A DNA stretch of 58,950 nt from Gammaproteobacteria bacterium (GTDB lineage Bacteria > Pseudomonadota > Gammaproteobacteria > GCA-001735895), in assembly GCA_024686195.1 (NCBI GenBank), contig JAIBDO010000002.1, forward strand, positions 1 to 58,950. The letters run 5' to 3'. Shown here in pieces: positions 24,570-42,292 of this stretch. Both the position numbers and the translations under genes were made by a program. Within the stretch, counting starts at the first letter, position 1, and the number at the start of each line of letters is the position of its first letter. The notes beneath the pieces are model-generated. The model was given only the letters and a program-made list of their open reading frames with translations, was not told where the DNA came from and searched no databases.

Positions 24570-24683
24570 ATGGCAAAATGACCTCGTCGTAATCATTCAT
24601 CGAACTTCAAGGCCAGGGTGGCGCTTGCGGCCATCAAAGGCGACAAAACCGCCGTCAAACTGTCCGACGATGCGGCTAATTGA
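24570..24683 (+). pseudogene. 5-prime remnant of an IS3-family orfA (HTH transposase) gene
   Basis: Reading frame is ATG GCA AAA TGA(stop) then PRRNHSSNFKARVALAAIKGDKTAVKLSDDAAN*. The RRN.S..FKA.VALAAIKG.KT stretch matches the N-terminus of IS3-family OrfA proteins as I remember them. There is an in-frame stop at codon 4 and the ORF is truncated after about 37 codons. Confidence 0.55.
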
Positions 24684-24691
24684 CTGTCAAT

Positions 24692-24705
24692 ATGACATAG
24701 ATCAA
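24692..24705. promoter_or_regulatory. candidate FNR/CRP-class box
   Basis: aTGAC-ATAG-ATCAA versus the TTGAT-N4-ATCAA consensus. It lies between the divergent FNR-type gene and the 66-aa ORF. Confidence 0.35.
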
Positions 24706-24778
24706 GGAGAGTCGTGGACCAGGCCTGTCAACATGATGATTAAATGAAATTGCGCGCATTTAAAATGTGATTTAGCTG

Positions 24779-24979
24779 ATGACCGACAACGACCAGGAAA
24801 TACTAAGTGCAGCGGAGAACATGATCGAAAGGTACGGGGACAATGCTCTACAGGAGGTCGAGCTGCGAGTTTTGGAGCTTGAGTCGCGAAATCAGCTGGA
24901 TGCCTTGCGCTTATGGTACGAGATAAGGGAAAGGGTCAAGTTTCTGATGAAGACACAAACGCACAACGGTAAGCATTAA
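24779..24979 (+). CDS. small helical hypothetical protein
   Basis: 66 aa (MTDNDQEILSAAENMIERYGDNALQEVELRVLELESRNQLDALRLWYEIRERV). It resembles a family of roughly 60-aa proteobacterial proteins of unknown function (memory). The internal ATG at codon 15 has a better SD sequence (GGAG). Confidence 0.45.
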   Translation: MTDNDQEILSAAENMIERYGDNALQEVELRVLELESRNQLDALRLWYEIRERVKFLMKTQTHNGKH

Positions 24980-25300
24980 GCCGGTTTGGATATATCTGCA
25001 ACCTCATTCCACGGCGGTTGAAAAATTCGACGCTCAAGCTCGACTAGTTGGCGGTAAAAACTGGTCGAAGATTGTCTCCTGGCGCTGCGAATTGAGCATC
25101 TTCTTTGAGCGCTGACAAGCTGCTGCGTGCTCTCGAGAGTGGACTGTTTGACGCCGCATTTAGAGGTGCATCTGAGCAGGTGAACCAGTTCAGGCCATCT
25201 CTTGTGGAGTGCGTATGTGGAATGACTTTTTGATATGCACAGGGTAGCCGTTGAAAAGGTTTCCACAATGTAACCAGGAGAGCACAGCCCTGGCTAATAA

Positions 25301-25387
25301 TGGTAGCGGGAGGGGGACTTGAACCCCCACTCTGTTGCCAGAACTGGATTTTGAATCCAGCGTGTCTACCAATTCCACCATCCCGCC
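25301..25387 (-). tRNA. tRNA-Leu (anticodon CAA)
   Basis: Minus strand folds by hand as GGCGGGA-TG-GTGG..CAC-CTGGA-TTCAAAA-TCCAG, then a long variable arm, GGGGG-TTCAAGT-CCCCC-TCCCGCT-A-CCA. This is an 87-nt class II cloverleaf with encoded CCA. Confidence 0.93.
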
Positions 25388-25616
25388 AAATCTTTACAAA
25401 CCGATCATGCCTTTAGGCCCGTGCGCCACCGAGGGTGGAGTGAGGGTCAGGCGATTTTTCTGTGCGCCACATCTAGCAACGCCGCTACCCCGCACGGAGC
25501 GCGCATTCTAATTCAAAATATATCCAAGTGGTAGTGCAGAAGGTATGATACGCGGTTTTTCAGGCGACTCCGGTCTTCAACGCTCCTTCAGGCAACCTGT
25601 TTCATGCAAATCTCCC

Positions 25617-27763
<2,147 letters not shown>

Positions 27764-27870
27764 AACTGTCGTTTCTGCCTTGTCGTATGTCTATCCGGGT
27801 GCCATAATACGCGCCGCTTGAGAGCAGGGCCAAGGCCCTTACGAAACCGTAAACCAAAGGTTGATCGAAA

Positions 27871-28197
27871 ATGAGCTTTTTTATTAGTGATGCATACGCG
27901 CAAGATGCGTCGGGCCAGGCCGGTACACTGGAACTGATTTTGCCACTGTTGTTGATGTTCGCCATCTTCTATTTTCTGCTGATTCGTCCGCAGCAGAAGA
28001 AGGCCAAGGAACATAAAGGCATGGTCGAGTCGCTGAATAAAGGTGACGAAATAATCACCAACGGCGGCCTGCTCGCCAAAATTACCGATGTCGACGATAA
28101 TTTCCTGACCTGTCAGATATCGTCTAACGTTGAAGTCAAGATCCAGCGATTTGCAGTCACCTCGGTATTGCCCAAGGGCACTATCAAAAATCTGTAA
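27871..28197 (+). CDS. yajC: preprotein translocase subunit YajC
   Basis: 108 aa: LLMFAIFYFLLIRPQQKKAKEHK. Confidence 0.9.
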   Translation: MSFFISDAYAQDASGQAGTLELILPLLLMFAIFYFLLIRPQQKKAKEHKGMVESLNKGDEIITNGGLLAKITDVDDNFLTCQISSNVEVKIQRFAVTSVLPKGTIKNL

Positions 28198-28203
28198 CTA
28201 CTG

Positions 28204-30072
28204 ATGGTCAATCGTTATGCTCCCTGGAGATATATTCTCCTGCTCCTGATTATTGTGATCGGTGCCGTCTATGCGGCGCCGAATCTCTATGGTGAGGACC
28301 CCGCGCTGCAGATTTCTCATCGGGTCAATCTGATCGATGATGCAGAACTCGGCAACATCAGCAGTCTGCTCAAAAATGAAGGCGTGGACTACCGTTCTGT
28401 CGAACTCGACGGCAATAATATTCTGGTGCGCTTCGACTCAGAGGAGAAGCAGTTGCGCGGCGCCGATCAGGTTCGCGAAGCGCTTTTTGCCAACGACCGG
28501 CGTTATAGCATCGCACTGAATCTGGCACCGGCCACGCCCGACTGGCTAACCAGCCTGAGCGCATTGCCGATGTACCTCGGCCTTGATTTGCGCGGTGGTG
28601 TGCACTTCCTGATGGAAGTCGACATGGAGTCGGCCATCGAGAAGTCTCTGGAACGATTCAGTAGCGAGATGCGTACCTTCATGCGAGAAGAAAAAATTCG
28701 CTATAAAGCAGTGCAGGCCGCCAGTGATAAAATCAGTATTCGTTTTGCCAGTGCGGAAACTCGTGATAACGGGCGCCTGTTGCTGGAAGAGGAATTTCGT
28801 GATTTCGAGTTTGCCGACAGCAACGATGATCGCGGCTGGTTTGTCAATATCAGCTTCAACCCGATCTCGCTCGCCGAAGAGCGGCGCGCAGCCATCGAAC
28901 AGAATATCTCTACCTTGAAGAATCGTGTTAATGAGCTGGGTGTTGCCGAACCGGTGATCCAGCGACAGGGTGAAGAACGTGTGGTCGTGCAATTGCCGGG
29001 TGTACAGGATACGGTGCGCGCCAAGGAGATTCTGGGTGCGACAGCTACCCTGGAATTTCGACTGGTACATGGCAGTTTTGCAGACTGGAGCGCAGCCGGC
29101 AGCAGCGGCAAGGCCCCGATCGGCAGCCGACTCTATGCCCGAAGCGATGGCTCACCGGTTCTACTGAAACGCAATGTGATCGTCACCGGTGATCAAATTG
29201 TCGGGGCTGCCTCCGGCCTCGACCAGCAAAGTGGTACGCCGGATGTCACTATTACCATGAATTCCAGCGGTGCCGATCGCATGGCGCGGGTTACGCGCGA
29301 TAACATCGGCAAGCCGATGGCGGTGGTGTTCATCGAAGACAAGTTCGAATTCCGTGAGGTCGATGGTGAGCGTAAGCGTATACGCAGCACCGAGTCACAG
29401 GTCATCAACGTGGCGACCATTCAGGATCAACTGAGTAAGCGCTTTCATATTACCGGACTCGATAGTACGCGTGAGGCACGTGATCTGGCGTTGCTATTGC
29501 GCGCGGGTGCCTTGCGTGCGCCGATGGTCATCGTCGAGGAACGTACCGTAGGCCCGAGTCTCGGTCAGGAAAACATCGACCGCGGATTTCTGTCGGTAAT
29601 CGTCGGTTTTATCGCGGTGCTGCTGTTCATGGCGTTCTACTACAAGGTGTTCGGCCTGGTTGCAAATCTCGCGCTGGCGCTGAACCTGGTGTTGATGGTG
29701 GCGATACTGTCCATTTTTCAAGCGACCCTGACCTTGCCTGGCATCGCCGGGATTGTACTGACGGTGGGTATGGCGGTCGACGCGAATGTGTTGATTTTTG
29801 AGCGCATACGCGAAGAACTGCGATTGGGAAATACCCCGCAGGCATCTATTTACTCAGGCTATAGCAAGGCTTTCGGGACTATCGCGGACGCAAATATAAC
29901 CACTTTTATCGCGGCTATCGTGTTGTTCGGTTTTGGCACCGGGCCGATTCAGGGCTTCGCTGTGACGCTGATGATTGGCATTGCGTCTTCGATGTTTACC
30001 GCAATATTCGGCACGCGTGCCTTAATCAACCTGATTTACGGCAGTAAACAGGTTAGCCGACTGGCGATTTGA
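28204..30072 (+). CDS. secD: protein translocase subunit SecD
   Basis: 622 aa: LGLDLRGGVHFLMEVD...GPSLG...LTLPGIAGIVLTVGMAVDANVLIFERIREE. Confidence 0.95.
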   Translation: MVNRYAPWRYILLLLIIVIGAVYAAPNLYGEDPALQISHRVNLIDDAELGNISSLLKNEGVDYRSVELDGNNILVRFDSEEKQLRGADQVREALFANDRRYSIALNLAPATPDWLTSLSALPMYLGLDLRGGVHFLMEVDMESAIEKSLERFSSEMRTFMREEKIRYKAVQAASDKISIRFASAETRDNGRLLLEEEFRDFEFADSNDDRGWFVNISFNPISLAEERRAAIEQNISTLKNRVNELGVAEPVIQRQGEERVVVQLPGVQDTVRAKEILGATATLEFRLVHGSFADWSAAGSSGKAPIGSRLYARSDGSPVLLKRNVIVTGDQIVGAASGLDQQSGTPDVTITMNSSGADRMARVTRDNIGKPMAVVFIEDKFEFREVDGERKRIRSTESQVINVATIQDQLSKRFHITGLDSTREARDLALLLRAGALRAPMVIVEERTVGPSLGQENIDRGFLSVIVGFIAVLLFMAFYYKVFGLVANLALALNLVLMVAILSIFQATLTLPGIAGIVLTVGMAVDANVLIFERIREELRLGNTPQASIYSGYSKAFGTIADANITTFIAAIVLFGFGTGPIQGFAVTLMIGIASSMFTAIFGTRALINLIYGSKQVSRLAI

Positions 30073-31010
30073 TCATGGCTCGGACTCTACTCAATAATTT
30101 TGATTTCATGGCATGGCGCAAACCAGCGATGCTGCTTTCATGTGCATTGATACTGGTATCGATCTTCAGCCTGCTCACGCTGAAGCTGAACGTGGGTATC
30201 GATTTTACTGGTGGTAGCATTATCGAGGTCGGCTATCAGCAGGCAGTCGAACTCGAGCCGATACGCCAGGCGCTTAACTCCGAAGGTTTCGGGGATGCGA
30301 TCGTGCAGCATTTCGGCAGTGCCAGCGAGGTGCTGATTCGTCTGGTGCCCGATGTTGATAAAGATAAGGCTGAACTGAGTACGCAGATTATCGGCCTGTT
30401 GCAGAAAATCAGTGACAGCCCGATCGATGTGCGCCGCGTGGACTTCGTCGGACCTCAGGTGGGTAAGGAACTGACCGAAGACGGGGGACTTGCGGTGCTT
30501 TACGCGTTGATCGCTATCCTCATCTACGTTGCGTTTCGTTTCGAGTATCGCTTTTCACTCGGAGCGGTTGCCGCTCTGATACACGACGTGATGATAACGC
30601 TCGGATTTTTCTCGGTACTGCAGCTGGATTTCGATCTGAGTGTGCTGGCTGCCATCCTGGCGGTCATCGGTTATTCGCTCAACGACACGATCGTTGTTTT
30701 CGATCGTGTGCGTGAAAACTTCCGCAAGATCCGTAAAAAGACGTCGCTCGAAGTGGTCAACATGTCTATCAACCAGACCATTTCACGGACCTTGATGACT
30801 TCATTCACGACCCTGCTGGTTTTACTGTCACTCTTCTTTCTGGGCGGTGAGGCGATTCACGCTTTTGCACTGGCTCTGATTATTGGTGTGTTGGTGGGTA
30901 CCTATTCCTCGATTTATGTTGCGACGACCTCGGCGCTGGTTCTTGGTATCAGTCGCAGCGATTTGCTGTTACCTGAAAAGGAAGGCGACGACGAGCTGGC
31001 GCGTCCTTAG
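30069..31010 (+). CDS. secF: protein translocase subunit SecF
   Basis: 313 aa: GIDFTGG...IGYSLNDTIVVFDRVREN. Overlaps secD by 4 nt. Confidence 0.95.
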   Translation: MIMARTLLNNFDFMAWRKPAMLLSCALILVSIFSLLTLKLNVGIDFTGGSIIEVGYQQAVELEPIRQALNSEGFGDAIVQHFGSASEVLIRLVPDVDKDKAELSTQIIGLLQKISDSPIDVRRVDFVGPQVGKELTEDGGLAVLYALIAILIYVAFRFEYRFSLGAVAALIHDVMITLGFFSVLQLDFDLSVLAAILAVIGYSLNDTIVVFDRVRENFRKIRKKTSLEVVNMSINQTISRTLMTSFTTLLVLLSLFFLGGEAIHAFALALIIGVLVGTYSSIYVATTSALVLGISRSDLLLPEKEGDDELARP

Positions 31011-31025
31011 GCCAGGGAGAACAAT

Positions 31026-31271
31026 ATGCATCTTGATCCTGAATTGATTGACGAGTTGGCCCTGTTGCGACGTTTCAGCATGGGTGGACCGGTTGCCATG
31101 AATTTGCAGGATAACCCTGACCCCGCGGTTACCGCAGCGGCCGGGCGCATGTTCGCAAAAGGTCTGATTACCGAGTCTGGTGGCGGCCAGCTCACGGAGT
31201 CTGGACGTCAGGCGATAGAGCACATGGAGCGTTTGCTGAATCTGCTCGACCCACCGCTGGAGCCTATCTAA
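31026..31271 (+). CDS. small hypothetical protein trailing secF
   Basis: 81 aa with GGGAGA 6 nt upstream of the ATG and only 15 nt after the secF stop. Composition is coding-like. I do not recognise a family. Confidence 0.45.
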   Translation: MHLDPELIDELALLRRFSMGGPVAMNLQDNPDPAVTAAAGRMFAKGLITESGGGQLTESGRQAIEHMERLLNLLDPPLEPI

Positions 31272-31505
31272 CACGCGCTGCTGTGCTGCTGATCATCGTC
31301 AGTTGCCAGGGCTTCCCTTAAGATACCTGATTTTCCTGACAAGGGTTGATGCTTAACGGTGTTCTGTGATAAACCGCAAGACTATGCGATCAGCTACCAC
31401 ATTCGATTCGAACCATCGCCCCGGCCTCGGGGCGTGCAGTTGTGATGGATCGACGCTTATCAGCCGATATCGGCCACCTGCTCATATAAACGGTGGCAGC
31501 GCTCA

Positions 31506-32918
31506 ATGATCGAGCAGGTTTCCAGCCTGGATAGTAATGAAGTGCTGGTCGTTGATTCCAACTACACACGTGGCCATTCTTTTCTCGCAGTTCTCAATTT
31601 CATCAAGGTGGATGCCCAGTTGGTGTCTCCGGAGCAACTGGCTGGAATAGCGCGTCGCGAACTCTACAACTATCTCGCCATCTTCAGCATTGGCGGCGAT
31701 GACATCATGCAGTTTTTCCTCGAGCGAAATCGGCAGGACAAGTGTAAGTACCCCGTGGTTTTGCTGGCCGACAAGTCTGACTTTAATTTACTGGAAATTG
31801 TTCTACAGCCGCCTTTTATCTCCGGCCTGTGTTTCCAGTCGGATTACTATGCGTTAGCGCAGGTTCTCGATCAGGCACGCATGCATAACAAGCGCGAACG
31901 GCGCATGCAAACGCGTGAATGCCAGCCGCTGATCGGTAGCAGCAATGCTATCGAGCGTATTAATTTAATGATTGATCAGGTCGCCGACACCAACGCTTCG
32001 GTACTGATCCTCGGTGGACCCGGCACGGGCAAGGAAGTGGTTGCAAGAAATATTCACGCGCAATCTGTGCGCAGTGCCAGGCCATTTGTACCGATCAACT
32101 GCGGTGCGAGTTCCGCAGAGTTGCTGGAAAGTGAGCTTTTCGGGCATGAAACGGATAGCCTTGCCGGAGCCACAGGTCCGCGCCAGGGACGTTTCGAGCT
32201 GGCCGAGGGTGGTGTGCTGTTTCTCGACGAGATTGGCGATATGCCGCTTGCGGTGCAGGTTAAACTACTGCGCGTATTGCAGGAGCGCTGTTATCAGAAA
32301 GTTGGGGGCAGTAGTGCCATTCCCACCAACGTGCGTATCATTGCCGCTTCCCATCACCCGCTGGAACGATTGATCGCAGAAGGCCAATTCCGCGAAGATT
32401 TATATTACCGGCTCAATGTATTCCCGATCGAAGTGCCGCCACTGCACAAACGCAAATCAGATATTCCACTGCTGATCCAGGAAATGATTACCCGCATCGA
32501 ACAGGATAATCGTGGCTCGGTGCGTCTCAGCAAGAAAGCGACGTCCATGTTGCAACAACATAGTTGGCCCGGGAACGTGCGCGAACTCGGAAATCTGATC
32601 GAGCGGCTGGCGATACAGTTTCCGCATGGCGTGGTTGATTCCAGGGATCTGCCGACAAAATATCAGTCGGCTGAAGCAAGCGATTCAGCAGGCCTGTCTG
32701 CCGCCGCAACCGCCCTGGCAAACTCGGTCGATTTCGAGCAGCTGTCCGGCGATGGTATCGATATGAAGCAATACCTGAACGATATCGAGATATCCCTGAT
32801 CCAACGGGCGTTGTTGAAAACCAATAATGTAGTCGCGCGAGCCGCAAGCATGCTGAATATGCGCCGTACTACCTTGGTCGAAAAGATGCGCAAGTACGAT
32901 ATCGAGCGCGCCGACTAA
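31506..32918 (+). CDS. FleQ-like AAA+ enhancer-binding-protein paralogue with degenerate GAFTGA loop
   Basis: 470 aa. FleQ-type N-domain ([20 protein letters not shown]), Walker [14 protein letters not shown] (170-181), Walker [38 protein letters not shown], and a Fis-type HTH ([12 protein letters not shown]). Residues 217-222 read DSLAGA (nt 32154-32171) where GAFTGA is expected. Confidence 0.85.
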
Positions 32919-33414
32919 CCTGCCTTGAAGTCATCCGGTTAACTATCGGATATCCCGGCAATCGTGATTTGTCTCTGCAGTTGATTCTGCATTTGATGCA
33001 GAAACTGAAACCGACCGATCCATAAAACCGGCAAATTTTCGCTCCACTAGTCAAAGGCAGGTCGGACTGACAAACTCCAAAGCGTCCATCGAGGAAGTCA
33101 GGGCGTTGACGAAAATCGCAGGTAGAATCGCCAGAATAAGCTATGTTCTAACCGACGATGCACTTACATGGGGCTGGTATTTTCCAGAACAGGGTTTAAA
33201 TGCTTGCGTTCGGTGCTTGTGATGCTTGAGGCTTTTGGCGACTGCTGTAAATGGCGATCCTGGAGATGTTCACAAACGCGGTAAACCGGTAACTAGACGT
33301 TTAACCACCGAACCAGACATACCGCTATCGAATTTTTGCTAACACCTGCTGGACCATGCCGGTCCGGGAATGATTAAGTCGCTGTCATCCGCATTCGTAA
33401 CAACGGAGATATGA

Positions 33415-33717
33415 ATGGCAATAAATATGACGGTTTCCGCAAATGGTGACCAGGTCACCATTGCTGTGACCGGCAGATTTGTGTTTGAGCTCTACGACGA
33501 CTTCCGTGCATCCTATGCAGGCACGGCAGGCGTTGGAGTTGCCTATCTGGTAGATTTAGCCGACACCGAATATCTCGACAGCTCGGCGCTCGGAATGCTG
33601 TTACTGCTGCGTGAACACGCGGGTGGAGTAGCATCGAATATCGAAATTACCCAGGCTTCTCCGGAAGTCCGCAGAATTCTCGATGTCGCTAATTTTGGTA
33701 AACTGTTTAAATTTTAG
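33415..33717 (+). CDS. STAS-domain protein (anti-sigma-factor-antagonist fold)
   Basis: 100 aa with GGAG 6 nt upstream of the ATG: VTIAVTGRF...YLVDLADTEYLDSSALGMLLLLRE...PEVRRILDVANF. Confidence 0.8.
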   Translation: MAINMTVSANGDQVTIAVTGRFVFELYDDFRASYAGTAGVGVAYLVDLADTEYLDSSALGMLLLLREHAGGVASNIEITQASPEVRRILDVANFGKLFKF

Positions 33718-33729
33718 CGAGGCGAACTG

Positions 33730-34017
33730 ATGATTAAACGCGTTGAAAAGCGGGACTTCCAGCGTATGCCGATCGATTGTGATCTCAAGTTCTCCGTGGT
33801 CGGTGACATCCGTGAGCATCGGGGCAAGGTGATCAATTTGAGCGGTACCGGAATTTTGTTTTCCTGCAGCCAGAAGGTCGAGCCCGATATACTGCTCACC
33901 GTGGTGCTCAGCGCGCCAAATACGTCACCCATGCATGCGACGGTGAAGGTCGAGCGGGTCGTTAGTAATGCTGTGTTCTACGAGGTTGCCTGCTCGATCC
34001 GCAGCAAATTCGATTAA
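33730..34017 (+). CDS. single-domain PilZ c-di-GMP receptor
   Basis: 95 aa with RxxxR = R8-DFQ-R12 and D/NxSxxG = N36-L-S-G-T-G41. Starts 12 nt after the STAS stop. Its stop codon shares the palindrome TTAA (34014-34017) with the convergent ispG stop. Confidence 0.8.
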
Positions 34018-35228
34018 CCGGGCGTATAGCGGTTCTTCACGTAGTCTTTGACCAGTCCGATGAATTCCTGTGCGATATTGTCACCCTTCAGCGTCACCGT
34101 CTTTTCTCCATCCTGATAAACCGGCGCCACCGGTTGCTCACCGTTACCCGGCAGACTGATGCCAATGTTGGCATGCTTGCTTTCACCCGGGCCATTCACC
34201 ACGCAGCCCATTACCGCGACCTTCAAGGATTCGACGCCGGGATACTGGTGTTTCCAGCTCGGCATGGATGCGTCCAGTTCCTGTTGAATCTGCTGCGCCA
34301 GCACCTGGAAGTATTCACTGGTGGTACGTCCACAACCCGGGCATGCCGTCACGCTCGGATTGAAAGAGCGAAGATCCAGAGATTGCAGGATCTGTTGTGC
34401 GACTTTGACTTCACGTTCGCGCGTTGCGCCGGGTTCAGGTGTCAGTGAGACACGAATCGTGTCACCAATGCCCTGATTGAGCAGAATGGCGAGCGCTACA
34501 CTGGAGGCGATGACCCCAGGATCACCCATGCCCGCCTCGGTAAGACCCAGATGCAGTGCGTAGCGACAGCGTTTTGCCAGCTCCTGATAGACCTCGATCA
34601 AATCCGGTACACGGCTCATCTTGCAACTGATGACGATGCGCTCGGCACCGAGGCCGATGTCCTCGGCAAAAGCCGCGCTGGTCAGTGCTGATTCGATAAC
34701 TGCCTGACGGGTGATAGCCTGCAGTGATAGCGGGTCGGCCAGGTTAGCGTTTCGCGTCAACAGGCCGGCCAGCAGTTGTTGATCCAGGCTGCCCCAGTTC
34801 ACACCGATGCGCACAGGCTTATCATAACGGCAGGCGATCTCGATCATGTCGCTGAATTGACGATCTCGTTTCTTGCCATGCCCGACGTTCCCGGGATTGA
34901 TGCGATACTTGGCCAGGGCGCGCGCGGCAGCATCGTGTCGGGTGAGCAACTTGTGGCCGTTGAAGTGGAAATCACCGACCAGCGGCACGTGGCAGTCCTG
35001 CTGTGCCAGTTGTTCGACGATATGAGGGAGCGCGCGCGCCGCGGCATCGTTGTTTACGGTGACGCGCACCAGCTCTGACCCCGTGTCATGCAATAACTTT
35101 ACCTGGGCTACGGTAGCCGCGATATCCGCGGTATCGGTATTGGTCATCGACTGCACTACCACCGGTGCGCCACCTCCAAGGAGGATACCGGCGACATCGA
35201 CACTGTGCCTTTGACTGGCTGTATTCAT
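34014..35228 (-). CDS. ispG: 4-hydroxy-3-methylbut-2-enyl diphosphate synthase, long (about 400 aa) type
   Basis: 404 aa: [17 protein letters not shown]...VRVTVNN...VGDFHFNGH...YRINPGNVG...HLGLTEAG...TACPGCGRT...GCVVNGPGE. Confidence 0.92.
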
Positions 35229-35301
35229 GGAATTCCAGGCGAGAAATCAGGGCGCTTATAGTAAAGAACATTGTTCATTTGTGAAAGTGCTATGCCGGTA
35301 C

Positions 35302-35494
35302 TTAATGGCACTTACTTAAGCCTGAACACTGGTGCATCCAGAGTCCGACTGCGGTCGGATGTTTTGGGGAACTATTCGCGAATGCCTCGGCGGCTTCGCC
35401 GCCTGCGGTTTACTTCGCAAATAGTTCCCCAATCATCCACCTTCTCTCAACCGGAATGAATGTCATGGGGTTGTGCTTAAGTAAGTGCCATTAA
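35302..35494. mobile_element. 193-bp MITE-like nested palindrome with 20-bp perfect TIRs and a 9-bp target-site duplication
   Basis: TIR-L TTAATGGCACTTACTTAAGC (35302-35321) is the exact reverse complement of 35475-35494. The flanking direct repeats TGCCGGTAC at 35293-35301 and 35495-35503 are identical. There is an inner inverted repeat GGGGAACTATTCGCGAA (35366-35382) / TTCGCAAATAGTTCCCC (35414-35430) and a central hairpin GGCGGC-TTC-GCCGCC (35389-35403). Confidence 0.7.
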
Positions 35495-35604
35495 TGCCGG
35501 TACTCGGATGAAGGTATTACGAAAGCTCATTCTTCGGCCAGTTGCGCTGTTTCATGGTTGTTTCACAAGCGCGCCAAAACCTTTAGAATTCGGGCCTGTT
35601 TTTG

Positions 35605-36324
35605 ATGGGAAGAAACGTGTTTAGCCAGGTCCGTATAATTGCCTTTGATCTCGACGATACCCTGTGGCCGTGTATGCCGACCATTAATCGCGCCGAGGAT
35701 ATTCTATACCAGTGGCTGGCGCGCTTTTATCCGCGTATTACAGAGGGATATGATGCCAGGAAAATGGTTGCGTATCGCCGTGAATTCAGTGCGCGCGAGG
35801 CTCACTATGCGATCGACATGACCGGTATGCGGCGAGATTTCCTGCATCATCTGGGAGAGATTCACGATTACGACGGGAAACAGGTCGCAAGCCAGGGATT
35901 CGAAATTTTCTTCGCGGCACGTCAGCAAGTCGAATTTTATGATGATGTGTTGCCCTGCCTGCAGCGGCTCAAGCGCAAGTACCGACTCGGCAGTATCACC
36001 AATGGCAACGCCAGCGTCGAGCACGTCGGGCTGGCTGACTTGATCGAACATCCCGTAGGCGCCTCAGATGTGATGGTTGCCAAACCTGACCCATTGATTT
36101 ATCAGCATCTTGCTGAGCGCTTTGATGCACTACCCGAGGAGATTGTTTATGTGGGTGATCATCCGCACTACGATGTGGTCGGTGCGGTCGATGCCGGGTT
36201 CCATGCGGTGTGGATTAATCGTGAGCGCATATCCTGGCCGGACGACCTGCCGCAGCCACAGCACGAGGTGAGCGACCTGCACCAACTTGAGGCATTGCTC
36301 GAAGGTCGTGATCCTGATGACTGA
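35605..36324 (+). CDS. HAD-superfamily hydrolase
   Basis: ATG at 35605 (the track starts at a TTG 3 nt earlier). Motif I is FDLDDTLW. Other motifs: SITNGNA and VGDHPHYDVVGA. Confidence 0.8.
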   Translation: MGRNVFSQVRIIAFDLDDTLWPCMPTINRAEDILYQWLARFYPRITEGYDARKMVAYRREFSAREAHYAIDMTGMRRDFLHHLGEIHDYDGKQVASQGFEIFFAARQQVEFYDDVLPCLQRLKRKYRLGSITNGNASVEHVGLADLIEHPVGASDVMVAKPDPLIYQHLAERFDALPEEIVYVGDHPHYDVVGAVDAGFHAVWINRERISWPDDLPQPQHEVSDLHQLEALLEGRDPDD

Positions 36325-36412
36325 GCGTTAGTAACTGAGCGTTAGTAGCTGAGAATTAGTAGCTGAGAATTAGTAGCTGAGAATTAGTGACTGAGAATTA
36401 GTGACTGAGAAT
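36321..36412. repeat. 14-bp tandem repeat, 6.6 units
   Basis: Units: CTGAGCGTTAGTAA, CTGAGCGTTAGTAG, CTGAGAATTAGTAG x2, CTGAGAATTAGTGA x2, then CTGAGAAT. The array contains the stop codon of the HAD gene (36322-36324) and the stop of the convergent tesA (36398-36400). Confidence 0.92.
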
Positions 36413-37027
36413 GGCGATCATTGCTGAAGTGACTTTACCGGCGAGGATCGGCTGCGCCATGGCGGTTGGGTGAATGCCATCCGCTTGCATCAGTGCGGGA
36501 TCGCTGGCTGCCACACCTTCGAGGAACCTTGCCAGGTAGTGAATGTCAAATTCCGCAGTCACGCGGTCGAAGATTTGCTGGAAACGGGCATTGTAAGTTG
36601 CACCAAAGTTGGGCGGCATACGTACTCCGATCAGCAAAACCGTGATTTTCTGCTGCTGGGCGAGTCGCACCATCTGCCGCAGGTTGTCGGTGCTCTGCTC
36701 GAATCCGAGGCCACGCAATCCATCGTTACCGCCCAGTTCAATAATTAAATGACTGGGCTGATGCTGTGTCAGCAGTGCGGGCAGGCGCTGCAGGCCGCCA
36801 AATGTTGTTTCACCGCTGATGCTGGCATTGATGACGCTTGTGTGTGGAAAACTTGCCCCTATATTGGAGCTGAATAACTGCGCCCAGCCCTGGTCTACCG
36901 GCATGTTGTGGGCGGCGCTCAAACTGTCACCCAGGATCAGGATTTTGATTTTCTCGTGTTTCGCATCACCCGCGTTGTGAACGCCGAGCAATATGAACAG
37001 GACCATGACTGAAAATAATCTTTGCAT
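36398..37027 (-). CDS. tesA: SGNH/GDSL arylesterase - thioesterase I / lysophospholipase L1
   Basis: 209 aa with a signal peptide, block I ILILGDSLSA, block III GGNDGLRG, and the DGIHP catalytic His. Confidence 0.85.
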   Translation of the reverse strand: MQRLFSVMVLFILLGVHNAGDAKHEKIKILILGDSLSAAHNMPVDQGWAQLFSSNIGASFPHTSVINASISGETTFGGLQRLPALLTQHQPSHLIIELGGNDGLRGLGFEQSTDNLRQMVRLAQQQKITVLLIGVRMPPNFGATYNARFQQIFDRVTAEFDIHYLARFLEGVAASDPALMQADGIHPTAMAQPILAGKVTSAMIAILSH

Positions 37028-37685
37028 TGCATTAAAACAGGTCGGTAAGACCGTGGATACTCCGGAAGGGAAGCTCGATATACTCGATAATATATCACTG
37101 GAAGTCGAGTATCAGGAAGCGGTTGTCATCAAGGGCGCATCCGGGTCGGGCAAAACCACGCTGCTTGGCCTGATGGCGGGCCTGGATCAGGCAAGCTCGG
37201 GCGACATCAAATTACTGGGCCACGATCTGATGCACAAGAGCGAAGAGCAACGTGCGGCGATTCGAGCCGGTCAGGTGGGTTTTGTGTTCCAGTCTTTCCA
37301 TCTGGTACAGGGTGCCACTGCGCTGCAAAACGTGATGTTGCCACTGGAATTGAGCGGTATCGAAAATGCCGGGCAACTCGCACAGACAAGCCTGCAGCAG
37401 GTAGGACTGGCCTCGAGAGCCGACACCCTGGTGGAGCATCTCTCGGGCGGTGAGCAACAGCGCGTTGCCATCGCGCGTGCCTACGCTACCGAACCGAGTG
37501 TCCTGTTTGCCGACGAACCAACCGGGAATCTCGATGCCTCTACCGGGCGGCAGATCGCCGATTTGATGTTTGAGTTACGTGATCAGTCGGGGACTACATT
37601 GGTGCTGGTGACTCATGAAGCGGAGCTTCTCGAGCGCGGTGATCGTCAAATCCTGATCGAATCCGGCAAACTGGTCACGAGCTGA
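36993..37685 (+). CDS. ybbA: ABC transporter ATP-binding protein (YbbA/LolD-like)
   Basis: 230 aa with Walker A GASGSGKTTLL, LSGGEQQRVAIARA and Walker B LFADEPTGNLD. Divergent from tesA as in E. coli. The start could instead be the ATG at 37005. Confidence 0.85.
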   Translation: MNRTMTENNLCIALKQVGKTVDTPEGKLDILDNISLEVEYQEAVVIKGASGSGKTTLLGLMAGLDQASSGDIKLLGHDLMHKSEEQRAAIRAGQVGFVFQSFHLVQGATALQNVMLPLELSGIENAGQLAQTSLQQVGLASRADTLVEHLSGGEQQRVAIARAYATEPSVLFADEPTGNLDASTGRQIADLMFELRDQSGTTLVLVTHEAELLERGDRQILIESGKLVTS

Positions 37686-37691
37686 CAGACG

Positions 37692-40142
37692 ATGAAAGTC
37701 AAACGCGCGACCATTCATGCTTACTGGCTGATGTTCATAGCCAGCGTTATAACCGTTGGCATTGTCACGTCGAGCCAGCTGATCAGCGATCGTATCAGTC
37801 TGCTACTGGATCGCCAGGCCAGCGAGTTGCTGGCGGCTGACCTGGTCATAGAGTCGAGCAACGACTTCAGTCATGAGTATCGTGAACAGGCGTTGCGTGA
37901 AGGCTTGCAGGTCAGCCACAGTATCAGCTTGCGCAGCGCCATCTTCGTCGATGACACGCCGCGCCTGATCGAGTTGAAAGCGATCGATGCCAATTACCCG
38001 CTGCGTGGAAAACTGGAAACGGCGCTTGAAATCACCGGCACGCGACAGGTCACTACCGAGGTTCCCTCTGCGGGCGAAGTGTGGATCGATAGCAAGCTCG
38101 CGGGACTGGTGGGCAGTCAGATTCAGCTGGGTGAAAAATTCCTCAGCGCACAACGGCTGTTAACTTACGAACCCGACCGTGGTGGGGCGATCTTCAATCT
38201 CGCGCCGCGGGTATTGATGAATGTCGAGGATCTGTCCGACACGGGTCTGATTGTGGCGGGTAGCCGGGCAGAATATCGCCTGATGTTTGCCGGGGCGACG
38301 GATGATCTCGTGCGTTTCAAAATCTGGCTGAGCACCAACGCCAAACCGGGTGAGGAAATTCAGGATCTCGAAAACGCGCGCCCGGAAATGCGCCGGGCGC
38401 TGGAGCGTACGCGCCAGTTCTTTGCCCTGGCAATCGTGCTTACGCTGGTTATCGCGATGGCTGCGCTTGCCATTACCGCGCGTTATACAGCGAATCAGGA
38501 AGCACCCAAGGTGGCTATGTTGCGGGCTTTCGGTATATCGCAGGCCAACCTGCTGAAGTATTACCTGCGACAACTCGGCACGTTATGGATAATGGCCACC
38601 CTGGCCGGCATCGTGCTTGGCTGGGGCTCACAGTTCCCGCTGCAGTGGGCGCTCGATGGCTGGTTTGGTAAAGCCTTGCCGCAGGTTTACAGTCTGCGCC
38701 CCTACCTGACCGCCGCACTGGTAGGCTTGCTCGCTCTGGCCGGTTTCTCTTTGCCCTACCTGGTCAACGTGACCGCGACACCGCCGATGCAGGTGCTGCG
38801 TACGGTGGTGAACCAGCGCTCCTGGTGGCGTGGCCTGTTGATTTCAGGCAGTGCCATCGTTGCCGTGTTTGCGGTGCTGATGTTGTTGATGCAAAGCTCG
38901 ATACTGGCGGTTGTGACACTGGCACTGGTGCTGGCCTGTGCGCTGGTTCTGCCACTGTTGCTGGGTTGGATGGTGCGCGCCCTGCTGTATTCATCATCGC
39001 GCCGCTTCTGGTTGCGCCAGTATCTATTGAGTCGATTGCGCGCAACCTCACGCGGCGCCATTTATGTCATGTCGGGATTCAGCCTGGTGCTGATTTCCAT
39101 TTTACTGATCGCTGTGGTGAAGGATGAATTGATCGGTGAATGGGAGGCTCAATTGCCCGACAACATTCCCAATTATTTTCTGATTAACATTCGCACTGAA
39201 GACGTCGGTGGGATCGAAGCATTCCTGCGCCAGCGTGGTATTGAGGCATCGACGCCTTATGCGCTGGTGCGCGCGCGTATGGCGAAGATCAACGACGTCG
39301 ACGTCGATAAAATCAATTTCACGGATCCGCGCGCATCACACTCGGTGACGCATACTTTCAATGTTACCTATGCTGATGAAGTGCCCGACCAGAACCTGAT
39401 AGTGGCAGGTGAGTGGCTGAGCAATAGCAATGATCCCGCACAGGTATCGGTAGAGCAGGGCCTGGCCGAGCGCCTGCAACTGGAAATTGGTGATACGCTC
39501 ACCATGATGGTAGGTAGTCAGCGGTTTGAATCCCGGGTCAGCAGCATACGCTCGGTAGCCTGGGAGAATTTCAAGCCTAATTTCTTCCTGATCACCAATA
39601 CCGAACTGATTGAATCCTTTCCGCAAACCTGGTTGTTGAGCGCACTGGTCACCGATAGTAACAGGGCAGATTTAAAACAGTTGTTGCAACGCTACCCGTC
39701 GGTAACCTTGCTTGATATCAGCGAGATGATGGCGCGCGTGCGCGGCATCGTCGAGAAAGCCTCGGTCGCGTTGCAGTTCTTCTTTGTTTTTGCGTTGGTT
39801 TCCGCCGTCATCGTGTTGCTCGCGGCTATTCAAACTGGTCGGCATGAACGCGAAGTGGAGTCTTCGTTATTGCGAGCTCTCAGCGCTAATACGGGGCAGT
39901 TGTACCGGGTTCATATACTGGAATATACGCTGATGGGTGCGCTGATCGGCTTTTTCTCTGCTGCCTTCGCCAGTATCGCCGGCTGGGCAATCAGTGAATT
40001 TTTCTTCGATATCGAATTCCAGCTATCTGCCAGAGTGTGGATATACAGCCTGGCATCGGGCACGGTGATTTTAAGTCTCGCGGGTACCATGGTTAGCCGC
40101 AGGGTTTATAATGTGTCTCCGATGAAAGTATTGCGTTCCTGA
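37692..40142 (+). CDS. ybbP: FtsX-family ABC transporter permease (YbbP-like, duplicated FtsX domains)
   Basis: 816 aa with about 10 TM segments in two blocks separated by soluble domains. Immediately downstream of ybbA. Confidence 0.82.
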   Translation: MKVKRATIHAYWLMFIASVITVGIVTSSQLISDRISLLLDRQASELLAADLVIESSNDFSHEYREQALREGLQVSHSISLRSAIFVDDTPRLIELKAIDANYPLRGKLETALEITGTRQVTTEVPSAGEVWIDSKLAGLVGSQIQLGEKFLSAQRLLTYEPDRGGAIFNLAPRVLMNVEDLSDTGLIVAGSRAEYRLMFAGATDDLVRFKIWLSTNAKPGEEIQDLENARPEMRRALERTRQFFALAIVLTLVIAMAALAITARYTANQEAPKVAMLRAFGISQANLLKYYLRQLGTLWIMATLAGIVLGWGSQFPLQWALDGWFGKALPQVYSLRPYLTAALVGLLALAGFSLPYLVNVTATPPMQVLRTVVNQRSWWRGLLISGSAIVAVFAVLMLLMQSSILAVVTLALVLACALVLPLLLGWMVRALLYSSSRRFWLRQYLLSRLRATSRGAIYVMSGFSLVLISILLIAVVKDELIGEWEAQLPDNIPNYFLINIRTEDVGGIEAFLRQRGIEASTPYALVRARMAKINDVDVDKINFTDPRASHSVTHTFNVTYADEVPDQNLIVAGEWLSNSNDPAQVSVEQGLAERLQLEIGDTLTMMVGSQRFESRVSSIRSVAWENFKPNFFLITNTELIESFPQTWLLSALVTDSNRADLKQLLQRYPSVTLLDISEMMARVRGIVEKASVALQFFFVFALVSAVIVLLAAIQTGRHEREVESSLLRALSANTGQLYRVHILEYTLMGALIGFFSAAFASIAGWAISEFFFDIEFQLSARVWIYSLASGTVILSLAGTMVSRRVYNVSPMKVLRS

Positions 40143-40152
40143 GCGAGGTACC

Positions 40153-42273: not shown

Positions 42274-42292
42274 GGATGATGGCCGCAAAATC

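What the first reader, a model, noticed from the sequence alone, without database searches (positions are those of the whole stretch)
31506..34017. Orphan FleQ paralogue with a destroyed sigma54-contact loop, followed by a STAS + PilZ gene pair
What the sequence shows:
- The 470-aa ORF is FleQ-like along its whole length: FleQ-type N-domain, AAA+ core and Fis-type HTH.
- At the invariant [15 protein letters not shown] position it reads [15 protein letters not shown] (residues 217-222, nt 32154-32171). The Phe and Thr that contact sigma54 are lost.
- Walker A is GPGTGKE instead of GESGTGKE.
- The position of the FleQ LFRS arginine reads CQPLIGSS.
- KEVVARN and REDLYYR are kept.
- I found no correctly spaced GG-N10-GC promoter in the 496-bp gap downstream.
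- No flagellar genes are in the window.
- The next two genes, 12 nt apart, encode a 100-aa STAS protein and a 95-aa PilZ protein with intact RxxxR and NxSxxG motifs.

Established knowledge, from memory: KEVVARN and REDLYYR contribute to c-di-GMP binding in P. aeruginosa FleQ. Vibrio VpsR is a precedent for an EBP that lacks GAFTGA, works with sigma70 and binds c-di-GMP.

Inference: this is a sigma54-independent, c-di-GMP-responsive regulator linked to a partner-switching-like (STAS) plus c-di-GMP receptor (PilZ) output. I do not know of a described EBP-STAS-PilZ trio.
Basis: partly seen in the sequence, partly recalled or inferred. Interest (0 to 1): 0.75.

Follow-up and report, generated by a model that had tools for sequence, protein, structure and literature searches.

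The report
Relic FleQ left after flagellar loss
This gene is the bacterium's own flagellar master regulator FleQ, stranded where it always sat after the flagellar genes on both sides were deleted; it has lost the loop that contacts sigma-54 but selection still preserves it, and it sits next to the STAS and PilZ genes only because of the deletion.

Summary
The sequence observation is correct. A 470-aa FleQ-type EBP (31506-32918) reads DSLAGA where GAFTGA should be, and a STAS gene and a PilZ gene follow it.

The interpretation needs revision:
- **Not a paralogue.** A flagellated relative has queA-tgt-yajC-secD-secF-DUF5669-flgG..fliT-fleQ-fleS..GGDEF-STAS-PilZ-ispG. The window has the same backbone without flgG..fliT and fleS..GGDEF. 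The EBP is therefore the positional orthologue of fleQ. fliT pseudogene remnants lie upstream of it in two related lineages.
- **Not a co-conserved trio.** STAS-PilZ-ispG occurs widely without any adjacent EBP. Some lineages lost fleQ, others lost PilZ, and unrelated genes are inserted between fleQ and STAS elsewhere.
- **Repeated events.** IspG and FleQ trees indicate about four independent deletions. The sigma-54 activation machinery was damaged differently each time: DSLAGA/DKLTGA, NALGDG, VDIGGS, or intact GAFTGA with sensor-II R→H.
- **Still under selection.** dN/dS is 0.06-0.15. ATPase residues are intact, and the HTH recognition helix matches flagellar FleQ.

Best reading: a relic FleQ kept for a sigma-54-independent, DNA-binding regulatory role, like FleQ at pel/psl promoters. 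c-di-GMP responsiveness is unproven, because two ligand arginines are absent lineage-wide. This is a new variant of a known kind (atypical EBP).

The parts
31026..31271 (+). DUF5669/TIGR02647 gene, the left anchor of the backbone. In the flagellated relative it is followed directly by flgG.
   Evidence: Pfam DUF5669 8e-15. L174 shows secF-DUF5669-flgG-flgH.... Collinear with L174 up to window 31277.
31272..31505 (.). Left deletion junction. About 12 kb (flgG-H-I-J-K-L, fliC, flaG, fliD, fliS, fliT) present in the flagellated relative is missing here.
   Evidence: fliT remnants occupy this position in L086 and L002. L002 still aligns to the fliT-fleQ intergenic region (z=14), but the window no longer does.
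31506..32918 (+). Relic fleQ: FleQ-type N-domain, AAA+ core, lid and Fis-type HTH. It is the positional orthologue of flagellar fleQ.
   Evidence: Pfam. 75-76% identical to context-verified flagellar FleQ and 45% to Pseudomonas FleQ. Best PDB match is FleQ 8P53, 8e-115. Synteny. dN/dS 0.06-0.15.
32013..32036 (+). Walker A GGPGTGKE (residues 170-177). The universally conserved Ser is replaced by Pro. Lys176 and Glu177 are kept.
32154..32171 (+). Degenerate L1 loop: DSLAGA in place of GAFTGA (residues 217-222).
   Evidence: The clade-wide pattern is [EA]T[DE][SK][LM]xGA.
32226..32231 (+). Walker B Asp241-Glu242, intact.
32775..32897 (+). Fis-type HTH (residues 424-464). The recognition helix [12 protein letters not shown] is identical to that of flagellar FleQ.
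   Evidence: Pfam HTH_8 1e-10. Alignment.
32919..33414 (.). Right deletion junction. About 32 kb (fleS, fleR, fliE onward, then response regulator, cadherin-like gene, FlhB-C-like, FliK-like, GGDEF) present in the flagellated relative is missing. No credible sigma-54 promoter, no conserved FleQ box and no Rfam match.
   Evidence: synteny; sigma-54 scan; FleQ box not conserved; Rfam; no sigma-70 consensus hit.
33415..33717 (+). STAS (anti-sigma-antagonist-like) gene. It belongs to a conserved STAS-PilZ-ispG module that exists independently of fleQ.
   Evidence: Pfam STAS_2 1e-10. 86 loci, DSS motif in 86/86.
33730..34017 (+). Single-domain PilZ gene with intact RxxxR and NxSxxG motifs, 12 nt after STAS.
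   Evidence: Pfam PilZ 1e-7. Motifs present in 78/81 loci. Deleted in L150/L153.
34014..35228 (-). ispG (GcpE), the right anchor of the conserved backbone.

Best explanation
**Origin (shown).** The EBP is the lineage's own fleQ, still at its ancestral chromosomal position.
- In flagellated relatives the order is queA-tgt-yajC-secD-secF-DUF5669-[flgG..fliT]-fleQ-[fleS, fleR, fliE ... GGDEF]-STAS-PilZ-ispG(-)-HAD-GDSL-ABC-FtsX-relA.
- In the window's lineage the two bracketed blocks (about 12 kb and about 32 kb) are absent. That leaves fleQ between DUF5669 and STAS-PilZ.
- The adjacency to STAS-PilZ is therefore a by-product of the deletion, not a functional trio.

**Loss of sigma-54 activation (inferred).** With its sigma-54-dependent flagellar targets gone, the part of the AAA+ domain that engages sigma-54 was no longer needed and decayed. 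The affected elements are the L1 GAFTGA loop, the AIP segment before it, the GRFE arginine and the L2/pre-sensor-I region. This happened independently, and differently, in about four lineages.

**Retained function (inferred).** The following remain under strong purifying selection: the FleQ N-domain, all ATP-binding and hydrolysis residues, the lid, and an HTH whose recognition helix matches flagellar FleQ. The protein therefore still binds FleQ-type DNA sites and nucleotide. It most probably carries out FleQ's second, sigma-54-independent job as a repressor/activator at sigma-70 promoters, as P. aeruginosa FleQ does at pel/psl/cdrA.

**Open.** Whether c-di-GMP controls it is unresolved.
For: **Synteny and origin**
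- L174 and L084 come from one contig of GCA_029979805.1. They give secF-DUF5669-flgG...fliT-fleQ-fleS-fleR-fliE....
- L173 (same assembly) and L172 (one 271.6-kb contig that also carries DUF5669 and FleQ) give GGDEF-STAS-PilZ-ispG....
- tblastx shows the window is collinear with both flanks and with fleQ only.
- fliT remnants lie directly upstream of the EBP in L086 (E 1e-10) and L002 (two frames).
- The L002 upstream gap still aligns to the fliT-fleQ intergenic region (z=14).
- Five of five sampled intact-loop homologues are in fliS-fliT-fleQ-fleS-fleR clusters.

**Independent events**
- Relic loci are never monophyletic in the IspG tree (0/200 bootstraps). L086 groups with flagellar-type loci at 100%.
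- The FleQ tree gives the same picture (0/200 for monophyly of relic copies).

**Lesions in the sigma-54 machinery**
- Loop states are DSLAGA/DKLTGA, NALGDG, VDIGGS, GAFSEA and GAFNGT.
- The L002 group keeps GAFTGA but has R363H (sensor II) and R233C.
- Universally conserved FleQ residues that changed cluster in window residues 172-264.

**Selection and retained parts**
- dN/dS is 0.06-0.15 overall and 0.04-0.08 in the AAA+ core, against about 0.05 for flagellar FleQ.
- K180, E181, R185, D245, E246, R260, R300, R306 and R363 equivalents are kept in 13/13 window-clade sequences, with one R260H.
- The HTH recognition helix is identical.

**Precedent**
- Sigma-54-independent, sigma-70-dependent FleQ action at pel is described in PMC10723142.
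Against: - No whole genome of a relic-type organism could be read. Complete loss of flagella, and the absence of a second fleQ, fleN or rpoN elsewhere, are inferred and not shown.
- No target genes are known, and no conserved FleQ box was found near the gene.
- fleQ is dispensable in some sublineages: L130/L135 lack it and L091 keeps only a fragment.
- The trees are neighbour-joining on single proteins. The window-clade node in the IspG tree has only 68% support, so the number of independent deletions (three to four) is approximate.
- 'Flagellar-type' status of GGDEF-type loci is verified directly in only one genome. Shared contig lengths support it in two further cases.
Confidence: 0.72

Rival explanations
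1. First reader's model. A FleQ paralogue forms a dedicated functional unit with the downstream STAS and PilZ genes. It acts as a c-di-GMP-responsive, sigma-54-independent regulator whose output is a partner switch plus a c-di-GMP receptor.
For: - The three genes are adjacent and on the same strand in the window and in L001, L002, L083, L085, L136, L141 and L152.
- PilZ and STAS motifs are intact.
- The R185, N186, E330 and R334 equivalents are kept.
Against: - Adjacency is explained by deletion of about 32 kb that separates fleQ from STAS in the flagellated relative.
- STAS-PilZ is conserved without any EBP in most loci.
- fleQ is lost in L130/L135, and PilZ is lost in L150/L153.
- Unrelated genes are inserted between fleQ and STAS in four lineages.
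- There is no conserved FleQ box or sigma-54 promoter upstream of STAS.
Confidence: 0.06
2. Functionless remnant. The gene is a decaying leftover of the flagellar regulon on its way to pseudogenisation, and the intact ORF merely reflects a recent loss.
For: - The sigma-54 machinery was damaged repeatedly and in different ways.
- The gene is deleted or truncated in L130, L135 and L091.
- dN/dS is about twice that of flagellar FleQ.
Against: - dN/dS is 0.06-0.15 across pairs with dS up to about 1.5. All domains are constrained, and the AAA+ core is at 0.04-0.08.
- About 50 distinct 90%-identity clusters all have full-length ORFs of 467-478 aa.
- The degenerate loop is itself conserved within the clade as [EA]T[DE][SK][LM]xGA.
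- All ATPase residues are kept.
Confidence: 0.07
3. FleQ antagonist. The organism still has flagellar genes and a second, intact fleQ elsewhere. This L1-dead copy shares the HTH and oligomerisation surfaces, so it acts as a dominant-negative partner or competitor that shuts flagellar expression down.
For: - The recognition helix is identical and the N-domain is 76% identical to flagellar FleQ.
- The ATPase is intact and the L1 loop is dead.
- My own knowledge: L1-loop-defective subunits poison mixed EBP hexamers.
Against: - The gene sits at the ancestral fleQ position with flagellar genes deleted around it, and with fliT pseudogene remnants in relatives. This points to loss of the cluster, not relocation.
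- Among the top 120 homologues, only one FleQ-like cluster carries the 3.72-Mb contig length of the complete relic-type genome.
- No flagellar gene occurs in 59 kb of window.
Confidence: 0.1
4. It is still a sigma-54 activator that uses a non-canonical L1 loop.
For: - The ATPase residues and the overall EBP architecture are intact.
- The loop keeps its length and the terminal G-A.
Against: - The Phe and Thr of GAFTGA are both replaced.
- Neighbouring universally conserved residues (K220, G221, I206, P207, E268) have also changed.
- Different lineages carry unrelated loop sequences, which is not expected for a re-optimised contact.
- There is no credible sigma-54 promoter nearby.
- Established knowledge: GAFTGA Phe/Thr substitutions abolish activation in PspF and NtrC.
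Confidence: 0.04

Closest known systems
Pseudomonas aeruginosa FleQ (flagellar master regulator; also a c-di-GMP-responsive regulator of pel/psl/cdrA at sigma-70 promoters)
   Same: - Same three-domain architecture.
- Best PDB match: 8P53 8e-115 and 5EXX 1.5e-109, gapless in the AAA+ core.
- Positional orthology through the fliT-fleQ-fleS locus of relatives.
- All ATPase residues and the R185, N186, E330 and R334 equivalents are kept.
- Recognition helix [12 protein letters not shown] is identical.
- The proposed mode of action equals FleQ's sigma-54-independent role (PMC10723142).
   Different: - GAFTGA reads DSLAGA.
- Walker-A Ser is replaced by Pro.
- R144 is replaced by Gln and R151 by Asn. 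Both changes are lineage-wide, and flagellar FleQ has them too.
- Only 45% overall identity, and 17% in the N-domain.
- No flagellar genes, fleS/fleR or fleN nearby.
Vibrio cholerae VpsR (atypical EBP, sigma-70-dependent, c-di-GMP-binding)
   Same: An EBP-derived regulator that lacks GAFTGA and is expected to work without sigma-54 (PMC6158489).
   Different: - VpsR has a true REC domain.
- VpsR has a degenerate Walker B (DE to ND) and no detectable ATPase activity. This protein keeps Walker B and all catalytic arginines.
- VpsR is a far weaker sequence match (7V2B, 1.3e-41, against FleQ at 8e-115).
- VpsR is an old, separate family. This protein is a recent in-situ derivative of fleQ.
Other atypical EBPs lacking GAFTGA (TyrR, PhhR, HupR, HsfA, NtrX; Caulobacter NtrC)
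   Same: An AAA+ EBP scaffold with a varied or lost GAFTGA that acts with sigma-70 (listed in PMC6158489; PMC12421884 turned up).
   Different: - Those are long-established families with their own N-terminal sensory domains.
- Here the loss is recent and recurrent. It is traceable to a specific event, the deletion of the regulator's sigma-54-dependent regulon.
Lysobacter enzymogenes (non-flagellated gammaproteobacterium)
   Same: A lineage that lost flagella while keeping c-di-GMP signalling.
   Different: L. enzymogenes is reported to have lost its FleQ homologue (PMC9758175). Here fleQ is retained under purifying selection in several independent losses.
P. aeruginosa HsbA/HsbD (STAS anti-sigma antagonist partnered with a diguanylate cyclase and FlgM). 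This is a comparison for the neighbouring STAS gene only.
   Same: - A single-domain STAS protein with a conserved DSS motif.
- It is encoded next to a GGDEF gene at the edge of the flagellar region in flagellated relatives.
- One JGI source name for a STAS cluster is HsbA-like (P0208).
   Different: - No HsbR-type kinase/phosphatase or HptB gene is nearby.
- The similarity was not tested beyond Pfam/NCBIfam (TIGR00377 at 35 bits, below its cut-off).
- The resemblance is partly from my own knowledge and is only a lead.

Membership tests
FleQ/FlrA flagellar master regulators | FleQ-type (non-phosphorylatable REC-like) N-terminal domain | tested here: met
   Pfam PF06490 at 25.7 bits against a cut-off of 22 (weak). 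76% identical to the N-domain of context-verified flagellar FleQ of the lineage.
FleQ/FlrA flagellar master regulators | Sigma-54-interaction AAA+ domain with intact ATPase residues | tested here: met
   PF00158 4e-64. K180, E181, R185, D245, E246, R260, R300, R306 and R363 equivalents are present.
FleQ/FlrA flagellar master regulators | GAFTGA L1 loop that contacts sigma-54 | tested here: not met
   Reads DSLAGA at the aligned position. The alignment to 8P53/5EXX is gapless. No such motif occurs elsewhere.
FleQ/FlrA flagellar master regulators | Fis-type C-terminal HTH | tested here: met
   PF02954 1e-10. Recognition helix identical to flagellar FleQ.
FleQ/FlrA flagellar master regulators | Orthology: encoded at the fliS-fliT-fleQ-fleS-fleR locus | tested here: met
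   Positional orthology through the conserved flanks DUF5669 and STAS-PilZ-ispG and through fliT remnants in L002/L086. The flagellar neighbours themselves are deleted in the window.
FleQ/FlrA flagellar master regulators | Activates sigma-54-dependent flagellar genes | not testable with these tools
   Predicted to be lost. The L1 loop is destroyed and the flagellar genes are absent from the locus. This needs in vitro or genetic assays and a whole genome.
c-di-GMP-binding FleQ (P. aeruginosa type site) | Ligand residues R138, R144, R185, R334 and E330 (cis) and R151 (trans), per PMC10723142 | tested here: inconclusive
   R185, N186, E330 and R334 equivalents are kept. R144 is Gln and R151 is Asn in the whole lineage, including flagellar FleQ. 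R138 depends on the alignment: Met in MAFFT, Arg137 in HMMER.
Atypical (sigma-54-independent) EBPs | EBP scaffold with a lost or varied GAFTGA | tested here: met
Atypical (sigma-54-independent) EBPs | Acts at sigma-70 promoters; targets independent of rpoN | not testable with these tools
   No targets have been identified. This needs ChIP/DAP-seq and rpoN genetics.
VpsR family | REC domain with a phospho-acceptor Asp, degenerate Walker B and no ATPase activity | tested here: not met
   The N-domain is FleQ-type. Walker B DE is intact. VpsR is a distant PDB hit (1.3e-41 against 8e-115 for FleQ).
STAS anti-sigma-factor antagonists (neighbour gene) | STAS fold with a conserved phosphorylatable Ser (DSS) | tested here: met
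   PF13466 1e-10. DSS in 86/86 loci. The NCBIfam TIGR00377 score of 35.5 is below its cut-off of 53.45.
STAS anti-sigma-factor antagonists (neighbour gene) | Cognate anti-sigma kinase or PP2C phosphatase encoded nearby | tested here: not met
   None is seen in the window neighbourhood or in the called genes of related loci.
PilZ c-di-GMP receptors (neighbour gene) | RxxxR and (D/N)xSxxG motifs | tested here: met
   RDFQR and NLSGTG are present. Both motifs occur in 78/81 loci, and the three exceptions are cut by contig ends. Pfam PilZ 1e-7.

The most novel reading that the evidence does not exclude
In a group of uncultured marine-sediment Gammaproteobacteria, the flagellar gene cluster was deleted at least three or four separate times. 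Each time fleQ alone was spared and kept under purifying selection, while its sigma-54-engaging surface was destroyed by a different route. If so, FleQ's sigma-54-independent regulatory job is by itself enough to maintain the gene. Nature would then have produced a series of separation-of-function FleQ alleles: ATPase and DNA binding kept, sigma-54 coupling lost. Loss of the loop may even be selected for, to stop futile engagement of sigma-54 holoenzyme.
Probability: 0.45. Interest if true: 0.65.

Novelty: new variant of a known kind. Interest (0 to 1): 0.5.

Why it matters
**Relevance to FleQ biology.** FleQ is the textbook regulator with two modes: sigma-54-dependent activation of flagellar genes, and sigma-54-independent control of biofilm genes. 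How one AAA+ protein serves both is still unresolved, as PMC10723142 says explicitly.
- These relic FleQs are natural variants in which only the second mode can remain.
- They retain an intact ATPase site, which bears on whether nucleotide binding or hydrolysis matters for the sigma-70 mode.
- The repeated, differently executed loss of the L1/L2 surface shows which residues are dedicated to sigma-54 coupling.

**Evolutionary route.** The case documents how an atypical EBP can arise. The route is not ancient duplication. A regulator outlives its sigma-54 regulon.

**Annotation.** Many such genes are labelled 'sigma-54 specific flagellar transcriptional regulator A', which is misleading.

**Method.** The case warns against reading gene adjacency as a functional unit when the adjacency was created by a deletion.

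Tried and rejected
1. **Genome scan with the EBP.** It was saturated by the generic pattern FLDEIGDM and returned only relatives at 55% identity or less.
2. **Co-loss of promoter and loop.** The idea was that the sigma-54 promoter upstream of STAS was lost together with the L1 loop. L002 has GGGCAC-N5-TCGCT where the window reads TTTGCT-N5-CTGCT. A PWM scan of 76 loci against shuffles showed no general sigma-54 promoter upstream of STAS, and the L002 site stands alone. Rejected.
3. **FleQ box in the fleQ-STAS gap.** GTCAGGGCGTTGAC at 33097 is statistically unusual in the window. It is present only in the window and its near-identical twin L001, and it is absent from L087 (98% identical EBP) and all other loci. 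Rejected as evidence.
4. **Duplication model ('FleQ2').** I held this until, together with gene conversion to explain polyphyly. It was replaced by the relic model once DUF5669, fleQ and STAS were found linked in flagellated relatives and fliT remnants were found.
5. **Rfam on the non-coding gap.** Only a sub-threshold speFL hit (15.9 bits against a cut-off of 37).
6. **Consensus sigma-70 promoter/terminator scan of 31200-34100.** Nothing above shuffles.
7. **Deletion-scar homology in the window's two gaps.** None was detectable, although it is present in L002.
8. **Literature searches.** Nothing was found for the genome accession or for a described STAS-PilZ pairing.


Full report
**1. Observation**

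The three ORFs exist exactly as described: 31506-32918 (470 aa), 33415-33717 (100 aa) and 33730-34017 (95 aa).
- Pfam finds Sigma54_activat (4e-64), AAA_lid_14, HTH_8 and a weak FleQ N-domain (25.7 bits, cut-off 22) in the first ORF. It finds STAS_2 (1e-10) in the second and PilZ (1e-7) in the third.
- No NCBIfam equivalog reaches its cut-off.
- Residues 217-222 read DSLAGA. The HMMER alignment to solved P. aeruginosa FleQ (8P53 at 8e-115, 5EXX at 1.5e-109) is gapless through the AAA+ core. GAFTGA is therefore replaced in place, and no GAFTGA-like motif exists elsewhere.

Three details of the finding need correction:
- A correctly spaced GG-N10-GC does occur in the 496-bp gap (about 33211), but it scores at chance level: 5.2 bits against 4.3 +/- 2.8 in shuffles.
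- FREDLYYR is FleQ 299-306 and carries the R300 arginine finger. The c-di-GMP motif is E330xxxR334, which here reads QEMITR and is conserved.
- GGPGTGKE still satisfies GxxxxGK.

**2. The family**

The EBP has more than 120 clusters at 70% identity or above, almost all from uncultured Gammaproteobacteria in marine or coastal sediment metagenomes.
- 63 of the 120 have an intact GAFTGA.
- The rest carry several unrelated degenerate loops: DSLAGA, DSLTGA and DKLTGA in one monophyletic clade that includes the window, and NALGDG, VDIGGS, GAFSEA and GAFNGT elsewhere.
- All five intact-loop proteins sampled across the tree are canonical FleQ in flgK-flgL-fliC-flaG-fliD-fliS-fliT-fleQ-fleS-fleR-fliE-fliF clusters.
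- Every degenerate-loop protein examined, plus one intact one (P0112, in the complete genome CP070646.1), lies instead in queA-tgt-yajC-secD-secF-DUF5669-EBP-STAS-PilZ-ispG(-).

**3. Origin: orthologue, not paralogue**

I first treated the secDF-locus gene as a FleQ duplicate. Four results overturned that.
- **Continuous map in one assembly.** In GCA_029979805.1, one contig reads queA-tgt-yajC-secD-secF-DUF5669-flgG-H-I-J-K-L-fliC-flaG-fliD-fliS-fliT-fleQ-fleS-fleR-fliE...fliK (L174 plus L084). A second contig reads GGDEF-STAS-PilZ-ispG(-)-HAD-GDSL(-)-ABC-FtsX-relA-dus-smr-surE, with no EBP next to STAS (L173). In the sister assembly all three markers are on one 271.6-kb contig. There the GGDEF gene starts about 72 bp beyond the coordinate at which the first contig ends. 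This suggests fleQ lies about 33 kb upstream of STAS on the same strand. That step is an inference from coordinates.
- **Collinearity.** By tblastx the window is collinear with the left flank up to DUF5669 (window 16765-31277), with fleQ (31509-32933) and with the right flank from STAS onward (33415-44458). The flg/fli/fle genes and the cadherin-like, FlhB-C-like, FliK-like and GGDEF block have no counterpart.
- **fliT remnants.** They lie directly upstream of the EBP in L086 (E 1e-10) and in L002 (two fragments in different frames). The L002 upstream gap still aligns to the canonical fliT-fleQ intergenic region (z=14).

The window's EBP is therefore fleQ itself, stranded after flgG..fliT (about 12 kb) and fleS..GGDEF (about 32 kb) were deleted.

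**4. The 'trio'**

A metagenome scan with a STAS alignment returned 80 loci.
- STAS-PilZ-ispG(-)-HAD is the conserved unit. Most loci with 2.5-6 kb of upstream sequence have no EBP. They have GGDEF, FliK-like and FlhB-C-like genes instead, and in deeper lineages REC, ParA-like and MCP genes.
- Within the window's own clade, L130 and L135 have secF-DUF5669-STAS-PilZ with fleQ gone. L091 keeps only a 44-aa fragment. L150 and L153 have lost PilZ, with 22 and 82 nt between STAS and ispG.
- The fleQ-STAS spacer ranges from 25 to 2960 nt. It holds unrelated genes in L087 (cyclase-TPR; this EBP is 98% identical to the window's), in L144 and L153 (redoxin-like) and in L086 (glyoxalase, TetR).
- There is no general sigma-54 promoter and no conserved FleQ box upstream of STAS.

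**5. How many times**

- In an IspG tree used as an organismal proxy, relic-type loci fall in four places among flagellar-type (GGDEF-type) loci: the window clade, L085/L136/L141, L002 and L086.
- Relic loci were monophyletic in 0 of 200 bootstraps. L086 groups with seven flagellar-type loci at 100%.
- The FleQ tree rooted with eleven outgroup FleQ/FlrA sequences gives the same picture: ingroup 100%, window clade 100%, all relic copies monophyletic 0/200.
- Each relic FleQ is closer to flagellar FleQ (75-88%) than to relic FleQs of other groups (72-80%). Flagellar FleQs are 86-92% identical to one another. Relic copies therefore evolve faster.
- The trees are neighbour-joining on single proteins, so 'three to four events' is an estimate.

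**6. What decayed and what is kept**

Decayed. Positions invariant in lineage FleQ and conserved in outgroups, yet changed in relic copies, cluster in window residues 172-264:
- the Walker-A Ser;
- the AIP segment before [11 protein letters not shown];
- the whole L1 loop;
- the Arg of GRFE (H, Q or C in three groups);
- the L2/pre-sensor-I segment LQERxxE.

The one relic group with an intact GAFTGA (L002/P0107) instead has sensor-II R363H and R233C. That is a different lesion in the same machinery.

Kept:
- The K180, E181, R185, D245, E246, R260, R300, R306 and R363 equivalents are kept in 13/13 window-clade sequences, with one R260H.
- The HTH recognition helix [12 protein letters not shown] is identical to flagellar FleQ.
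- The N-domain is 76% identical to flagellar FleQ.
- Nei-Gojobori dN/dS within relic clades is 0.06-0.15 (AAA+ 0.04-0.08, N-domain 0.06-0.09, HTH 0.07-0.27). Flagellar FleQ is at about 0.05.

The gene is functional, but it is released from the sigma-54-specific constraint.

**7. Mechanism**

- Shown: positional orthology, loss of the flanking flagellar genes, destruction of the L1 loop, purifying selection, and retention of the ATPase and DNA-reading residues.
- Inferred: the protein no longer activates sigma-54 holoenzyme. It persists as a DNA-binding, nucleotide-binding regulator of non-flagellar genes.
- Closest model: P. aeruginosa FleQ at pel. There, transcription is sigma-70-dependent, ATP hydrolysis is not required, and c-di-GMP converts repression into activation (PMC10723142).
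- c-di-GMP control is possible, because the R185, N186, E330 and R334 equivalents are kept. It is unproven, because R144 (Gln here) and R151 (Asn here) are missing throughout the lineage, including its flagellar FleQ.
- FleN, FleQ's partner at pel, could not be looked for.

**8. Comparison with known systems**

- Atypical EBPs lacking GAFTGA are well known: VpsR, TyrR, PhhR, HupR, HsfA and NtrX (PMC6158489).
- VpsR differs in three ways. It has a REC domain, a degenerate Walker B and no ATPase activity.
- The non-flagellated Lysobacter enzymogenes is reported to have lost FleQ (PMC9758175), so retention is not automatic.
- I found no report of FleQ orthologues retained after flagellar loss with recurrent L1 decay. 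That absence covers only the searchable open literature.

**9. Limits**

- No whole relic-type genome could be read. Complete absence of flagella, of a second fleQ, of fleN and of rpoN is therefore not shown.
- No targets are known.

**10. Verdict**

The locus is an in-situ relic of the flagellar master regulator turned atypical EBP, beside an independent STAS-PilZ module. It is a new variant of a known kind and of moderate interest.

Noticed in passing
window 33415-34017; L171/L172 8853-10622; L159, L164: STAS-PilZ is a conserved two-gene module next to ispG in 86 loci. In flagellated relatives it sits at the far end of the flagellar region, preceded by a GGDEF gene and by divergent FliK-like and FlhB-C-like genes. 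Deeper lineages have GGDEF-REC-ParA-like-MCP upstream. One JGI source names a STAS cluster as HsbA-like. Its function is unknown, but a c-di-GMP/flagellar partner switch is a plausible lead.
   Followed up: partly
L087 2373-4310; L144 4342-5040; L153 5203-5847; L086 6188-8716: The fleQ-STAS junction is a hot spot for unrelated insertions in different lineages: an adenylate/guanylate-cyclase-like plus TPR ORF (646 aa), a redoxin-like ORF with a Tat-like leader, and glyoxalase plus TetR genes.
   Followed up: partly
L002 10001-11419 (P0112) and P0107: The only relic FleQ group that keeps GAFTGA has sensor-II Arg363 replaced by His and the GRFE Arg replaced by Cys. This suggests sigma-54 activation can be disabled through the ATPase and L1-support residues instead of the loop itself.
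   Followed up: partly
window about 20800-25500: Relative to the flagellated relative (L174), the window carries an insertion between the HSP20 gene and queA. It holds FA_hydroxylase, bestrophin-like and Crp/cNMP-binding regulator genes.
   Followed up: no
window 11820-13073 (-) and 16369-20226 (+): Two c-di-GMP turnover genes lie nearby: a 4HB_MCP-GGDEF protein, and a hybrid HisKA-HATPase-REC-Hpt-REC-EAL protein. The second is conserved at the same position in the flagellated relative.
   Followed up: no
L084, L167-L170: upstream of fleQ, fleS and fliE: FleQ-box-like sites recur at conserved positions in all five flagellar loci: GTCAwwwwwwTGGC upstream of fleQ and fleS, and GTCAAAAAnTTAAC plus GTCAAGAAAnCGAC upstream of fliE. 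They are candidates for the lineage's FleQ operator, although the TGGC may overlap a sigma-54 -24 element.
   Followed up: no
window 33097-33110: Exact palindrome GTCAGGGCGTTGAC (FleQ-box core GTCA-N6-TGAC) in the fleQ-STAS gap. It is one of two exact matches in the window. It is present only in the window and L001 and is not conserved in close relatives, so it is probably chance.
   Followed up: yes
window about 33345-33352; L086, L115, L142, L109 about 70-100 nt upstream of STAS: A short element, GCTGGACC, recurs upstream of STAS in both relic-type and flagellar-type loci. Its function is unknown.
   Followed up: no
all lineage FleQ sequences (for example L084 10001-11419): The genuine flagellar FleQ of this lineage also lacks the R144 (LFRS) and R151 c-di-GMP ligands of P. 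aeruginosa FleQ. Its N-domain is only 17% identical to the Pseudomonas one. It is an open question whether FleQ senses c-di-GMP in this group.
   Followed up: partly
window 45842-47982: A LysM/M23 peptidase gene (NlpD-like) is followed by a sigma-70-family gene, the usual nlpD-rpoS arrangement. This is ordinary housekeeping context.
   Followed up: no
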